Source of the DNA: Escherichia phage vB_EcoM_PTE-Eco15
Sequence record: PQ352352.2
Reading direction: 5' to 3' (one strand)
DNA length: 64,000 nucleotides
Shown: one piece after another, positions 33,969-35,458 of the stretch
Numbering within the stretch: position 1 is the stretch's first letter
Layout: each line of letters begins with the position of its first letter
Notes under the pieces: model-generated
What the model saw: the letters and a program-made list of their open reading frames with translations, nothing else
Databases searched by the model: none
Told to the model about the DNA's origin: nothing
Program-made: the position numbers and the translations under genes

Positions 33969-34171
33969 ATATAATTAATAAGATTTTTGGAATTCAGTAC
34001 ATTAAGGTCACATATAAAGTAACAGATAAAAATCCATATACTGATGAACGTGAAGAACCACGAGTTGAGTCTATTATATTAGAAAAGGACCCTAACTGGC
34101 CAGTTGAATTTCGTCTTCCTTGCTATGGTCATTGGGCTGATGTTGAAATTATAAGCATTGAAAATGTCTGA
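33965..34171 (+). CDS. hypothetical protein (68 aa)
   Basis: ORF track; overlapping start/stop. Confidence 0.4.
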   Translation: MNIINKIFGIQYIKVTYKVTDKNPYTDEREEPRVESIILEKDPNWPVEFRLPCYGHWADVEIISIENV

Positions 34172-34622
34172 GTTAGAGATTAGAAGCAATTTTAGGTGGC
34201 CATCATGTGCATTAAGTAATTTCGCCCAATGGCCTTTCGTTATGGATGGTATTCAATTTGGAGGTCTTGAAGGATTCCTCCAAGGATGCAAGGTGAAAAA
34301 CGTTGAACAACAAAAACGTATATTTGGGTTGTCTGGATTGGCTGCGCAGCAAGCTGGAAGGTCTTATGCAAGAGCTCAGGACCGTGGGACTCTCTTCTGG
34401 TTAGGAGTTCCATTTTCAAGATACTCCGAAGCGTGGAAAGAATTATACACAAATGCATATTTTGAAGCAGCGATCCAAAACAAGGGCTTTCGTGATGCAT
34501 TACAAGCCTCGAAAGGAAAAGTTTTGAAGCACAGCATGGCTAGTGGTCTAACAAAAGATGATACAATACTAACCGAAGCTGAATTTATTGATGTGTTAAA
34601 CCTATTAAGAGACTCTCTATGA
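34158..34622 (+). CDS. NADAR/YbiA-like (DUF1768) protein (154 aa)
   Basis: LSNFAQWPFVMDG resembles the FSNFAAWPIKVDG core of E. coli YbiA (from memory). Confidence 0.5.
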   Translation: MKMSELEIRSNFRWPSCALSNFAQWPFVMDGIQFGGLEGFLQGCKVKNVEQQKRIFGLSGLAAQQAGRSYARAQDRGTLFWLGVPFSRYSEAWKELYTNAYFEAAIQNKGFRDALQASKGKVLKHSMASGLTKDDTILTEAEFIDVLNLLRDSL

Positions 34623-35458
34623 AGCCTACTATTTTAACTGATATTGATGGAGTATGTTTAAGCTGGCAATCAGGCCTTCCTTATTTTGCTCAGAAATATA
34701 ATCTTCCGTTGGAACATATTTTAAAAATGATCCAAGATGAAAAATTTATTTCTCCTGGTAAACTTTTTAATTGTGATGAAGAACTTGGTGTCAAGTTAAT
34801 TGAAAAATATAATCGTTCAGATTTTATTCGTTACTTGTCTCCATATAAAGATGCTCTGTGTGTAATTAACAAATTAAAAGAAGATTATAATTTTGTAGCT
34901 GTTACAGCGCTGGGTGATTCTATTGACGCTCTGCTGAATCGTCAATTTAATTTGAATGCTCTTTTTCCTGGTGCCTTCTCAGAAGTACTGATGTGTGGTC
35001 ATGATTCTTCAAAAGAAGAGTTGTTCAAAAAGGCAAAAGAGAAATATAACGTAATTTGTTATATTGACGATCTCGCTCACCACTGCGATCACGCGAGTGA
35101 AATATTAAGTGTTCCTGTTTATTGGATGGCTCGAGGGGAACGTGACAGTATTCCAAAAACTGCTCAGCGAGTTTATACATGGAACGATGTAGAGAATAAG
35201 CTTTTTTCACCAAAGGAAAATAAAGAAAGTTTTGATAGTGAAAAAGCTATAAAAGATGTAATTGAAAAGATGATTAAAAACGATTCTTTTCGTTGGAACA
35301 CTACCTGGAGAACTCCTGGATTTAATCCTTATAATCATCTATATCATCCATATCAGACACATCCGTTTCAGACATGGAACTATATTAAACCCGTCGGTAT
35401 AGAGTATTTGTATAATAGACCTACTTGTGGTGATAATATTTTCCAAGGAGCATTCTAA
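34619..35458 (+). CDS. HAD-superfamily hydrolase-like protein (279 aa)
   Basis: N-terminal DIDGV motif typical of HAD phosphatases/5'-nucleotidases. Confidence 0.45.
   Translation: MKPTILTDIDGVCLSWQSGLPYFAQKYNLPLEHILKMIQDEKFISPGKLFNCDEELGVKLIEKYNRSDFIRYLSPYKDALCVINKLKEDYNFVAVTALGDSIDALLNRQFNLNALFPGAFSEVLMCGHDSSKEELFKKAKEKYNVICYIDDLAHHCDHASEILSVPVYWMARGERDSIPKTAQRVYTWNDVENKLFSPKENKESFDSEKAIKDVIEKMIKNDSFRWNTTWRTPGFNPYNHLYHPYQTHPFQTWNYIKPVGIEYLYNRPTCGDNIFQGAF

What the first reader, a model, noticed from the sequence alone, without database searches (positions are those of the whole stretch)
34158..35458. NADAR/YbiA-like and HAD-like proteins encoded between rIII and DNA ligase, near the Alt ADP-ribosyltransferase
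The 154-aa ORF contains LSNFAQWPFVMDG, matching the conserved core of the YbiA/NADAR (DUF1768) family, members of which remove ADP-ribose from modified substrates. The adjacent 279-aa ORF starts with a DIDGV HAD-type motif (phosphatase/nucleotidase-like). Together with alt about 3 kb downstream, the phage may carry both writer and eraser activities for ADP-ribosylation. A NADAR enzyme could also counteract host ADP-ribosylating defence toxins.
Basis: partly seen in the sequence, partly recalled or inferred. Interest (0 to 1): 0.4.

Follow-up and report, generated by a model that had tools for sequence, protein, structure and literature searches.

The report
Known phage anti-DarT enzyme plus phosphatase
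The two genes are the T4-type genes 30.3 and 30.2: the first is AdfN, an already published enzyme that strips ADP-ribose from phage DNA to defeat the bacterial DarTG1 defence, and the second is a dispensable nucleotidase-like phosphatase of unknown role, so the finding is correct but mostly not new.

Summary
The window is a T4-like (Tequatrovirus) phage. Both ORFs exist as described.

**ORF 1 (gene 30.3).** The true start is most likely the ATG at 34164, giving 152 aa. The protein is 149/152 identical to T4 gp30.3. That protein was published in 2024-2025 as AdfN, a phage-type NADAR that removes ADP-ribose from guanine in DNA and is necessary and sufficient to overcome DarTG1. The catalytic E36, K43 and H123 and the C-terminal helix are intact. 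The predicted fold matches the three solved NADAR structures.

**ORF 2 (gene 30.2).** It has a confidently modelled HAD phosphatase domain of about 195 residues, with all four catalytic motifs and a helical cap. Its nearest known family is the 5'(3')-deoxyribonucleotidases (NT5C). A disordered, variable tail follows.

**What is not supported.**
- A NADAR-HAD functional pair. The adjacency is T4-type gene order and is lost in many relatives. In a published T4 transposon screen under DarTG1, 30.3 is lost (log2FC -7.25) while 30.2 is unaffected (-0.12).
- An "eraser" role against Alt. Nothing supports it, and it remains untested.

**Verdict.** The AdfN part is already known. Interest is low.

The parts
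34164..34622 (+). Gene 30.3 = adfN, a phage-type NADAR DNA ADP-ribosylglycohydrolase of 152 aa. Catalytic codons: E36 at 34269-34271, K43 at 34290-34292, H123 at 34530-34532. The C-terminal helix (residues 138-151) is intact.
   Evidence: Pfam PF08010 Phage_30_3, E=1.9e-69. 149/152 identical to T4 gp30.3. E36, K43 and H123 are invariant or nearly so in 40 relatives. AF2 model pLDDT 93.5. The top three PDB fold matches are YbiA 2b3w, PnNADAR 8bau and Geobacter NADAR 8bat. Function of the T4 orthologue is shown in PMC11825919 and PMC11125620.
34158..34163 (+).
   Evidence: T4 annotation is 459 nt. The published residue numbers fit the ATG at 34164.
34619..35206 (+). Gene 30.2, HAD phosphatase domain (residues 1 to about 196). 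Motif I is D8-x-D10-G-V (codons 34640-34648), motif II T96, motif III K132, motif IV D150-D151. A helical C1 cap covers residues 16-86.
35207..35458 (+). Gene 30.2, variable and mostly disordered C-terminal tail (residues about 197-279). It carries a recurrent short motif, GIEYLYNRPT (residues 260-269, nt 35396-35425).
   Evidence: pLDDT below 50 for residues 228-231 and 240-279. Tail length varies from absent to about 150 aa among homologues. The motif G-[IVL]-E-Y-x(3)-[QR]-P-T lies 6-10 residues from the end in 16 of 100 representatives.
33965..34171 (+). Gene 30.4 (68 aa). Its stop overlaps the adfN start (ATGTCTGA). It is context for the finding and a possible helper of AdfN, or merely polar on adfN.
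   Evidence: ORF and junction. phrog_2042, E=3.7e-34. It is the only other significant gene in the T4 DarTG1 transposon screen (log2FC -1.79, q=0.014). Homologues occur only in close T-even relatives and always immediately upstream of adfN.
35458..35727 (+). Gene 30.1 (DUF3045, 89 aa). Its start overlaps the 30.2 stop by 1 nt and its end overlaps the ligase start by 4 nt. It belongs to the same tightly packed gene string.
   Evidence: Pfam PF11243, E=4.3e-64. Junction sequences.
It is a neighbour by T4 gene order only.
   Evidence: Pfam PF03496 ADPrib_exo_Tox, E=1.4e-34. Same order in T4. Alt insertions are neutral under DarTG1 (log2FC -0.01).
32980..33009 (+). Best sigma-70-like promoter match (TTGACA-18-TAAAAT, 11/12), upstream of gene 30.7. 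It is a possible start of the transcript that runs through 30.3 and 30.2.
   Evidence: The total number of promoter-like sites is no higher than in shuffled sequence, so this is only a candidate.
37370..37389 (+). Terminator-like hairpin after alt.1; a possible end of the same transcript.
   Evidence: consensus scan only.

Best explanation
The region holds the T4-type genes 30.3 and 30.2, which are two separate functions that sit side by side.

**Gene 30.3 is adfN.** It encodes a minimal, core-only NADAR enzyme. During infection of a host carrying the DarTG1 toxin-antitoxin defence, the DarT1 toxin ADP-ribosylates guanine in phage DNA and blocks replication. AdfN hydrolyses the N-glycosidic bond between ADP-ribose and the guanine, restoring normal DNA and allowing replication. 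The catalytic residues are E36 and K43, which bind the distal ribose and the phosphate, and H123 in the last strand, the hallmark of phage NADARs. This activity is shown for the T4 protein and inferred here from 98% identity. It behaves as an orphan type-IV-antitoxin-like enzyme: there is no toxin next to it and no toxin binding.

**Gene 30.2 is an independent accessory enzyme.** It is an Mg-dependent phosphomonoesterase of the HAD superfamily. Its helical C1 cap points to a small-molecule substrate. Because its nearest relatives are 5'(3')-deoxyribonucleotidases, the substrate is most likely a nucleoside monophosphate. This enzyme class is inferred from fold and motifs; the substrate is unknown. 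Its disordered tail carries a short conserved motif that probably docks it to a partner.

**The adjacency and overlapping stop/start codons** reflect the generally tight packing of T4 early genes, not a NADAR-HAD module. Alt is unrelated to either gene's function.
For: **Identity of the region.**
- 98.7% DNA identity to T4-like phages.
- Same gene order as T4.
- 149/152 and 272/279 protein identity to T4 gp30.3 and gp30.2.

**NADAR membership of gp30.3.**
- PF08010, E=1.9e-69.
- 14 of 40 family members also hit Pfam NADAR PF08719, best E=1.5e-7.
- The family profile hits YbiA 2b3w at E=0.0034.
- The AF2 model (pLDDT 93.5) has the three solved NADARs as its only meaningful PDB matches.
- E36 and H123 are invariant and K43 is nearly so.

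**Function of the T4 orthologue (literature).**
- It is necessary and sufficient against DarTG1, E36A and K43A weaken it, it removes ADP-ribose from DarT1-modified DNA in vitro, and it does not bind DarT1 (PMC11825919).
- It hydrolyses guanosine-ADPr but not thymidine-ADPr (PMC11125620) or cytidine-ADPr (PMC12945103).
- Genome-wide T4 Tn-seq under DarTG1 gives 30.3 a log2FC of -7.25 with q=0.

**gp30.2 as an HAD/NT5C-like enzyme.**
- D8, D10 and K132 are invariant, and T96 and D150-D151 nearly so. D8, D10, R108 and K132 remain invariant, and W16, N111 and D151 nearly so, in the wider 127-sequence set.
- AF2 gives a Rossmann-like core plus cap with pLDDT above 90.
- The family profile hits a putative 5'(3')-deoxyribonucleotidase over its full length at E=3.6e-7.
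- NT5C is the commonest Pfam hit among relatives, 34 of 127.
- Viral fold matches are annotated as 5' nucleotidases.

**Independence of the two genes.**
- 30.2 is unaffected under DarTG1 (log2FC -0.12, q=1). Only two genes are significant in that screen, 30.3 and 30.4.
- Of 75 loci with a gp30.2-family gene, 41 have no NADAR within 8 kb.
- Most loci found through the NADAR have no gp30.2 homologue nearby.
- All junctions from 30.4 to gene 30 overlap, so the 30.3/30.2 overlap is not special.
Against: - No experiment was done on this phage's own proteins. AdfN activity is inferred from three-residue-different identity to T4.
- AdfN(T4) does not rescue uninfected E. coli from DarT1 and only weakly helps non-T-even phages. 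Something else in T-even infection contributes, so the mechanism is not fully understood.
- The window's gp30.2 itself hits no Pfam or NCBIfam HAD model. Its placement near NT5C rests on family-level profiles and fold.
- In Vibrio phage phi-ST2 a different NT5C-like HAD gene overlaps the end of the NADAR gene in another genomic neighbourhood. That is a hint, from a single case, that NADAR-nucleotidase pairing may not be pure accident.
- Lack of a Tn-seq phenotype for 30.2 does not exclude a redundant or condition-specific contribution.
Confidence: 0.85

Rival explanations
1. Writer/eraser pair. The NADAR reverses ADP-ribosylation written by the phage's own Alt (or ModA/ModB), tuning or resetting modification of host proteins. 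The HAD enzyme processes the released product.
For: Alt is a genuine ADP-ribosyltransferase 2.8 kb downstream. In the papers I read I found no test of T4 NADAR on arginine-linked ADP-ribose. By my own reasoning, the guanine N2 lies in a guanidine-like group, so cross-reactivity is not chemically absurd.
Against: All reported NADAR activities are on nucleic-acid bases: guanine for T4 NADAR, and neither thymine nor cytosine. adfN has a clear, sufficient phenotype against DarTG1 and none in its absence, being non-essential with 27/28 sites hit. Alt insertions are neutral under DarTG1. The alt-ligase-30.x order is simply conserved T4 gene order. NADAR genes of this family occur in many phage loci where the genes flanking them are unrelated to T4's; I did not check those loci for alt.
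Confidence: 0.04
2. NADAR-HAD functional module. gp30.2 works with AdfN, either as the unidentified T-even factor needed for full AdfN activity or by dephosphorylating a breakdown product of the released ADP-ribose.
For: The genes overlap by 4 nt. They are adjacent in T-even and Acinetobacter T4-like phages. When both lie within 8 kb, the NADAR is always upstream on the same strand (34 of 34). Vibrio phage phi-ST2 has another NT5C-like HAD right after its NADAR in a different neighbourhood. AdfN is reported to need a T-even-specific factor.
Against: In the T4 Tn-seq, 30.2 insertions are neutral under DarTG1 (log2FC -0.12, q=1) while 30.3 drops by 7.25 log2 units, so trans-complementation was not masking effects. 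41 of 75 gp30.2 loci lack a NADAR within 8 kb. In several roughly 170-kb T4-like genomes the two genes lie more than 50 kb apart, for example the same contig in L048 and L110. Every junction in this gene string overlaps.
Confidence: 0.06
3. gp30.2 is a polynucleotide end-healing 3'-phosphatase (like the phosphatase domain of T4 PseT) that serves the DNA ligase encoded two genes downstream.
For: Weak hit to the PHROG 'polynucleotide kinase' family (phrog_415, E=0.0036). Some viral fold matches are kinase-phosphatases. DNA ligase is two genes downstream.
Against: The model has a large helical C1 cap between motifs I and II. From established HAD knowledge, such a cap encloses the active site and goes with small-molecule substrates, whereas macromolecule-directed HADs such as PNK phosphatase are capless. 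The best sequence relatives are nucleotidases, not PNKs. As I recall, T4-like phages already carry PseT, and one is annotated in L002.
Confidence: 0.08
4. The NADAR acts like E. coli YbiA, as an N-glycosidase on riboflavin-pathway intermediates, with the HAD acting as the matching sugar-phosphate/FMN-type phosphatase (a metabolic rather than defence role).
For: YbiA is the best PDB match by sequence and fold. One JGI homologue of gp30.2 is named 'FMN phosphatase YigB'. YbiA-type NADARs are linked to riboflavin metabolism (discussion of PMC11825919).
Against: The protein has the phage-type His in place of the YbiA-type Glu. The published phylogeny places AdfN(T4) nearest the DarG1 NADARs. The DarTG1 phenotype is direct and strong. 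Neither 30.2 nor 30.3 shows a phenotype in minimal versus rich medium.
Confidence: 0.02

Closest known systems
AdfN (anti-DarT factor NADAR) = gp30.3 of phage T4 (Johannesman et al. 2025, PMC11825919; Cihlova et al. 2024, PMC11125620)
   Same: 149 of 152 residues are identical. Length, catalytic E36/K43/H123, the intact C-terminal helix, and the position between 30.4 and 30.2 are all the same.
   Different: Three substitutions (K51R, E89P and M125I, written window residue to T4 residue), none at catalytic positions. This phage's protein has not itself been assayed.
DarG1, the NADAR antitoxin of the DarTG1 toxin-antitoxin system (e.g. Geobacter lovleyi NADAR, PDB 8bat)
   Same: Same fold and the same reported chemistry, hydrolysis of guanine-linked ADP-ribose on DNA. 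Neither binds the toxin.
   Different: No DarT gene lies next to it, so it is an orphan. It lacks the N-terminal extension of DarG1. It has His instead of Asp at the last-strand catalytic position. The T4 protein cannot replace DarG1 in uninfected cells.
E. coli YbiA (PDB 2b3w), the founding NADAR/DUF1768 protein
   Same: Best structural and sequence match in the PDB (Foldseek E=4.7e-5, TM 0.65; profile E=0.0034). The shared core motif is xSNFxxxPF...E.[FY].Q.
   Different: About 19% identity. YbiA has Glu where phage NADARs have His. YbiA is a housekeeping enzyme linked to riboflavin metabolism (as summarised in PMC11825919).
5'(3')-deoxyribonucleotidases, Pfam NT5C PF06941 (human mdN/cdN; putative enzyme 3bwv of Staphylococcus)
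   Same: HAD core with a C1 helical cap. Motif I is D-x-D-G-V followed eight residues after the first Asp by an aromatic residue (W16). The family profile aligns to 3bwv over its full length (E=3.6e-7). 34 of 127 relatives pass as NT5C hits at E<=1e-3.
   Different: The window protein itself does not reach any Pfam HAD/NT5C threshold. It has its own invariant R108 and N111 and an extra disordered tail of about 80 residues. No substrate is known.
T4 PseT polynucleotide kinase/3'-phosphatase (HAD phosphatase domain)
   Same: Also a phage HAD phosphatase. There is a weak profile hit, phrog_415 E=0.0036.
   Different: By established knowledge PseT's phosphatase is capless and acts on polynucleotide ends. 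gp30.2 has a large cap and no kinase domain.

Membership tests
NADAR superfamily, phage 'gp30.3' branch (Pfam PF08010) | Significant match to the family profile | tested here: met
   PF08010, E=1.9e-69, 232 bits against a cut-off of 36, covering the whole profile.
NADAR superfamily, phage 'gp30.3' branch (Pfam PF08010) | Detectable sequence relationship to canonical NADAR/YbiA (PF08719) | tested here: met
   The window protein alone gives no PF08719 hit at E<=0.1. However, 14 of 40 family members do, with best E=1.5e-7, and the family profile hits YbiA 2b3w at E=0.0034 across the SNF...E.F.Q core.
NADAR superfamily, phage 'gp30.3' branch (Pfam PF08010) | YbiA fold (helical core flanked by small sheets) | tested here: met
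   AF2 model pLDDT 93.5, pTM 0.89. The Foldseek PDB top three are 2b3w (E=4.7e-5), 8bau and 8bat, with nothing else at probability above 0.1.
NADAR superfamily, phage 'gp30.3' branch (Pfam PF08010) | Catalytic Glu and Lys that bind the distal ribose and the phosphate (E36, K43 in T4 numbering) | tested here: met
   E36 is invariant and K43 at least 90% conserved in 40 relatives, and both are present in the window protein. Their role is shown by mutagenesis in T4.
NADAR superfamily, phage 'gp30.3' branch (Pfam PF08010) | Histidine at the last-strand catalytic position (Glu in the YbiA type, Asp in the DarG1 type) | tested here: met
   H123 is invariant in the alignment and lies in strand 120-123 of the model. 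The feature is defined in PMC11125620 and PMC11543638.
NADAR superfamily, phage 'gp30.3' branch (Pfam PF08010) | Full-length C-terminal helix (lost in the inactive RB69 allele) | tested here: met
   The ORF runs to residue 152 with helix 138-151. The RB69 frameshift is described.
NADAR superfamily, phage 'gp30.3' branch (Pfam PF08010) | Hydrolysis of guanine-linked ADP-ribose on DNA | not testable with these tools
   Shown biochemically for the 98%-identical T4 protein; inferred here.
DarTG1 toxin-antitoxin system (as its antitoxin DarG1) | Encoded next to a DarT1 toxin gene | tested here: not met
   The neighbours are 30.4 and 30.2, with no ADP-ribosyltransferase adjacent. It works like DarG1 but is an orphan, not a member of a TA pair.
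DarTG1 toxin-antitoxin system (as its antitoxin DarG1) | N-terminal extension typical of DarT1-associated NADARs | tested here: not met
   The protein is 152 aa and the core domain starts at residue 3 of the model. The absence is noted for AdfN.
HAD (haloacid dehalogenase-like) phosphatase superfamily | Motif I DxDx[TV] at the end of strand 1 (nucleophile and acid/base Asp) | tested here: met
   D8-I-D10-G-V. D8 and D10 are invariant in 35 and in 127 relatives.
HAD (haloacid dehalogenase-like) phosphatase superfamily | Motif II Thr/Ser, motif III Lys, motif IV acidic pair | tested here: met
   T96 is at least 90% conserved. K132 is invariant in both alignments. D150-D151 are at least 90% conserved, and D151 also in the 127-sequence set.
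HAD (haloacid dehalogenase-like) phosphatase superfamily | Rossmann-like alpha/beta core fold | tested here: met
HAD (haloacid dehalogenase-like) phosphatase superfamily | Cap type (a C1 cap inserted between motifs I and II implies small-molecule substrates) | tested here: met
   Six helices, residues 16-86, lie between strand 4-7 and strand 91-96. The functional implication comes from established HAD literature, not from a test here.
NT5C 5'(3')-deoxyribonucleotidase family (Pfam PF06941) | Match to the family profile above threshold | tested here: inconclusive
   The window protein has no hit. Among relatives, 6 of 35 (E<=1) and 34 of 127 (E<=1e-3) hit NT5C, and P0300 scores 34.1 bits against a cut-off of 24.8. 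The family profile hits 3bwv at E=3.6e-7. It is best described as a divergent sister branch.
NT5C 5'(3')-deoxyribonucleotidase family (Pfam PF06941) | Dephosphorylation of (deoxy)nucleoside monophosphates | not testable with these tools
   No biochemical data found for gp30.2; a literature search for 'gp30.2' returned nothing.

The most novel reading that the evidence does not exclude
gp30.2 is not a housekeeping nucleotidase but a second, still unrecognised counter-defence enzyme. In this reading it is a capped HAD phosphatase, docked to a partner by its conserved C-terminal GIEYLxxQPT motif, that destroys a nucleotide-derived host immune signal or toxic nucleotide. A related possibility is that the tiny upstream gene 30.4, rather than 30.2, is the missing T-even-specific helper of AdfN.
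Probability: 0.12. Interest if true: 0.55.

Novelty: already known. Interest (0 to 1): 0.15.

Why it matters
The main element, AdfN, is a published example of a lytic phage carrying an orphan antitoxin-like enzyme to undo DNA ADP-ribosylation by DarTG1.

Two points remain open:
- gp30.2 is conserved in about 1,450 phage records yet has no phenotype in any published T4 condition I could check, and its substrate is unknown.
- AdfN needs an unidentified T-even-specific factor. The published transposon data exclude 30.2 as an obligate helper and leave 30.4 as a cheap candidate to test.

Tried and rejected
- Single-sequence searches of both proteins against PDB sequences gave nothing useful. Family profiles were needed.
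- NCBIfam gave no meaningful hit for 30.4, 30.3, 30.2 or 30.1.
- The afdb50 fold library was unavailable, so BFVD was used instead.
- Profile-profile comparison of the gp30.2 family with the phi-ST2 NT5C-like neighbour aligned only the motif I region (probability 61%). I therefore do not call the two orthologous.
- Looking up contigs for distant gp30.2 relatives returned contigs that were too short or neighbours without annotation.
- The 127-sequence alignment was too diverse for the search for related loci, so the 35-sequence alignment was used.
- Fusion proteins containing the gp30.2 domain (P0253, P0311, P0206, P0244 and others) showed no informative partner domains in Pfam.
- I considered gp30.2 as the T-even helper of AdfN and rejected it as an obligate helper on the Tn-seq data.
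- I considered the 4-nt overlap as evidence of coupling and rejected it because every junction in the 30.4-to-30 string overlaps.
- The promoter scan is no better than chance overall, so the transcript boundaries are only suggestions.
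Full report
**1. What is in the sequence**

Listing ORFs over 31-40 kb shows a + strand string of closely packed genes. Their sizes and order match phage T4 exactly: gp31, rIII, 30.9, 30.8, 30.7, 30.6, 30.5, 30.4, 30.3, 30.2, 30.1, 30 (DNA ligase), alt.1 and alt. The DNA from 33900 to 35800 is 98.7% identical to several Tequatrovirus genomes, and 653 phage records match it.

The two ORFs of the finding are real: 34158-34622 and 34619-35458. The first contains LSNFAQWPFVMDG and the second starts MKPTILTDIDGV. 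Pfam confirms the ligase (PF01068) and Alt (PF03496).

One correction concerns the start of gene 30.3. T4 gene 30.3 is 459 nt, and the published catalytic numbering (E36, K43) fits only the ATG at 34164. The protein is therefore most likely 152 aa, not 154 aa.

**2. The first protein is AdfN, a known enzyme**

Sequence evidence:
- The protein matches Pfam PF08010 'Phage_30_3' at E=1.9e-69.
- It is 149/152 identical to T4 gp30.3.
- It does not hit Pfam NADAR (PF08719) directly. However, 14 of 40 aligned family members do, with best E=1.5e-7.
- A profile of the family finds E. coli YbiA (2b3w) at E=0.0034 over the SNF...E.F.Q core.

Structural evidence:
- The AlphaFold2 model is confident (pLDDT 93.5).
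- Its three best PDB matches are exactly the three solved NADAR structures: YbiA, Phytophthora NADAR with ADP-ribose, and Geobacter lovleyi NADAR. Nothing else is meaningful.
- In the 40-sequence alignment E36 and H123 are invariant and K43 is nearly so. H123 sits in the last strand of the model.

[quoted passage not shown] The YbiA type has Glu and the DarT-associated type has Asp at that position.

Function has been shown for the T4 protein. Johannesman et al. (Nat Commun 2025, PMC11825919) renamed 30.3 adfN and reported the following:
- It is necessary (T2 and T4 deletions) and sufficient (rescue of RB69) for growth on DarTG1 hosts.
- E36A, K43A and an RB69-like C-terminal truncation weaken it.
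- The purified protein removes ADP-ribose from DarT1-modified DNA.
- It does not bind DarT1.
- It does not counter DarTG2.

Cihlova et al. (Toxins 2024, PMC11125620) showed that T4 NADAR hydrolyses guanosine-ADPr but not thymidine-ADPr. A 2026 paper (PMC12945103) adds that it does not remove cytidine-ADPr. An independent genome-wide T4 transposon screen (bioRxiv 10.1101/2025.11.20.689424) found 30.3 insertions lost under DarTG1: Data S6, log2FC -7.25, q=0.

The window's allele is full length with the C-terminal helix, unlike the defective RB69 allele. Both are already published.

**3. The second protein is a divergent nucleotidase-like HAD phosphatase with a disordered tail**

The window protein hits no Pfam model. 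It hits only a PHROG of unknown function (phrog_420), plus a weak polynucleotide-kinase PHROG. It is 97% identical to T4 gp30.2.

Distribution and conservation:
- Homologues are widespread in T4-like phages of many hosts.
- Only the first 190-200 residues are conserved.
- D8, D10, G11 and K132 are invariant, and T96, D150 and D151 are nearly invariant. These are HAD motifs I to IV.
- A search of 1.84 billion representative proteins found 1,498 relatives, 668 of them at E<=1e-10, mostly stand-alone proteins of about 195 aa.
- In 127 of these, at 20-46% identity, D8, D10, R108 and K132 remain invariant, and W16, N111 and D151 nearly so.

Structure:
- The AF2 model is confident over residues 1-195. 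It shows a Rossmann-like core with six cap helices (residues 16-86) between motifs I and II, which is a C1 cap.
- Residues 228-231 and 240-279 have pLDDT below 50, and confidence is already lower from about residue 200.

Nearest family:
- At the sequence level the nearest known family is NT5C. The 35-sequence profile finds human mdN at E=0.017.
- The 127-sequence profile finds 3bwv over its full length at E=3.6e-7, followed by other nucleotide phosphatases.
- NT5C is the most frequent Pfam hit among relatives, 34 of 127. One relative passes the NT5C gathering threshold.
- BFVD fold matches outside the family are mostly annotated as 5' nucleotidases.

From established HAD knowledge, a C1 cap goes with small-molecule substrates. 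I therefore commit to an Mg-dependent nucleoside-monophosphate-type phosphatase as the most likely activity. The enzyme class is reasonably secure, but the substrate is inferred.

I found no paper on gp30.2. In the T4 transposon data gene 30.2 shows no effect in any condition I could read:
- It is fully dispensable on K-12, with 72/72 sites hit.
- It shows no effect in LB versus M9 (-0.10).
- It shows no effect under DarTG1 (-0.12).
- It shows no effect in the next sheet, Data S9 by the file's index, which is K-12 versus a clinical isolate (-0.21).

**4. Do the two act together, or with Alt?**

Evidence suggesting a link:
- The genes overlap by 4 nt.
- They are adjacent in T-even phages and in an Acinetobacter T4-like phage.
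- Whenever both lie within 8 kb, the NADAR is upstream on the same strand (34 of 34).
- Vibrio phage phi-ST2 has a different NT5C-like HAD overlapping the end of its NADAR gene, next to genes 47 and 46. That HAD aligns to the gp30.2 profile only around motif I.

Evidence against a link:
- Every junction from 30.4 to gene 30 overlaps, so the 30.3/30.2 overlap is not special.
- Of 80 viral loci found through the NADAR, a gp30.2 homologue is adjacent only in the T4-like group, is 0.5-1.3 kb away in some, and is absent within 8 kb in most.
- Of 75 loci found through gp30.2, 41 have no NADAR within 8 kb.
- Some 170-kb T4-like genomes carry the two genes more than 50 kb apart, for example the same contig in L048 and L110.
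- Most directly, in the T4 DarTG1 screen exactly two genes are significant, 30.3 and 30.4. Gene 30.2 is neutral.

I conclude that the pair is syntenic, not a functional module. gp30.2 is not the obligate T-even helper that AdfN is reported to need.

For Alt, proximity is just T4 gene order. Alt insertions are neutral under DarTG1, and all reported NADAR activities are on nucleic-acid bases. I found no test of T4 NADAR on arginine-ADP-ribose, so the writer/eraser idea is unsupported rather than disproved.

**5. Comparison with known systems, and novelty**

AdfN works like the DarG1 antitoxin, with the same fold and chemistry and no toxin binding. It is not a member of a DarTG system: there is no adjacent toxin, no N-terminal extension, and His replaces Asp. 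It is a member of the phage gp30.3 branch of the NADAR superfamily, and every defining feature I could test is met.

gp30.2 is a member of the HAD superfamily, with all motifs and the fold met. It is best described as a divergent sister of the NT5C nucleotidases. Membership of NT5C proper is inconclusive.

The core of the finding is therefore already known, and the HAD annotation is a routine prediction that some deposited genomes already carry.

**6. Things seen on the way**

- Gene 30.4 (33965-34171) is the only other DarTG1-conditional gene in T4 (log2FC -1.79, q=0.014). Its stop overlaps the adfN start. Its homologues occur only in close T-even relatives and always directly upstream of adfN. 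This may be a polar effect, or 30.4 may be the missing helper.
- The gp30.2 tail carries a recurrent motif, G-[IVL]-E-Y-x(3)-[QR]-P-T, near the C-terminus.
- The T4-annotated internal ORF 30.3' is not intact in this phage.

**7. Verdict**

The main element is already known, and interest is low (0.15).

Noticed in passing
window 33965-34171 (+), gene 30.4: In the published T4 transposon screen under DarTG1, exactly two genes are significant: adfN (30.3) and this 68-aa gene immediately upstream (log2FC -1.79, q=0.014). Its stop codon overlaps the adfN start. Its homologues were found only in close T-even relatives (14 of 85 loci), always directly upstream of adfN. It is either polar on adfN or a candidate for the unidentified T-even-specific helper of AdfN.
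   Followed up: partly
window 35396-35425 (+), residues 260-269 of gp30.2: A short motif, G-[IVL]-E-Y-x(3)-[QR]-P-T (here GIEYLYNRPT), sits 6-10 residues from the C-terminus in 16 of 100 gp30.2 cluster representatives spanning 46-98% identity. It lies inside an otherwise hypervariable, low-confidence tail. It looks like a docking peptide, but the partner is unknown.
   Followed up: partly
window 34300-34527 (+), out of frame inside gene 30.3: T4 annotates an internal ORF, 30.3', in another frame of gene 30.3. In this phage its ATG is ACG and there is an in-frame stop, so the ORF is not conserved. This argues against 30.3' being a real gene.
   Followed up: yes
L005 (Vibrio phage phi-ST2, KT919973) 6007-6958: A gp30.3-family NADAR gene is overlapped at its end by a 166-aa 'putative 5'(3')-deoxyribonucleotidase'. 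That protein aligns to the gp30.2 profile only around motif I. The pair sits next to genes 47 and 46 instead of the ligase. This is a second, apparently independent NADAR-nucleotidase adjacency.
   Followed up: partly
L003 (Caulobacter phage CcrColossus) 6001-7956; L004 (Ralstonia phage RSP15) 5995-8123: In two unrelated large phages the gp30.3-family NADAR is followed by an ORF of about 70 aa and then an RNA ligase or 'RNA-binding protein'. tRNA genes lie nearby: a dense cluster in RSP15, and a few about 4 kb downstream in CcrColossus. This may hint at an RNA-directed role for some phage NADARs.
   Followed up: no
P0013 (302 aa, metagenomic homologue of gp30.2): This protein carries the DUF3045 domain of gp30.1 (PF11243) fused to a gp30.2 homologue. 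In the window the two genes overlap by one base (TAATG), so this could be a genuine fusion or a one-base sequencing or assembly slip.
   Followed up: no
window 39585-39866 (+): A 93-aa ORF resembles the N-terminal part of Alt (FRLCTYTSGGDTN...MMHIV...). This matches T4's alt.-1/alt.-2, which the T4 record describes as an old partial duplication of alt.
   Followed up: no
PMC11125620, methods: The paper lists its T4 NADAR construct as 'gp30.3; residues 1-208', whereas T4 gene 30.3 encodes 152 residues. The discrepancy is unexplained. It may reflect tag residues or a different annotation.
   Followed up: no
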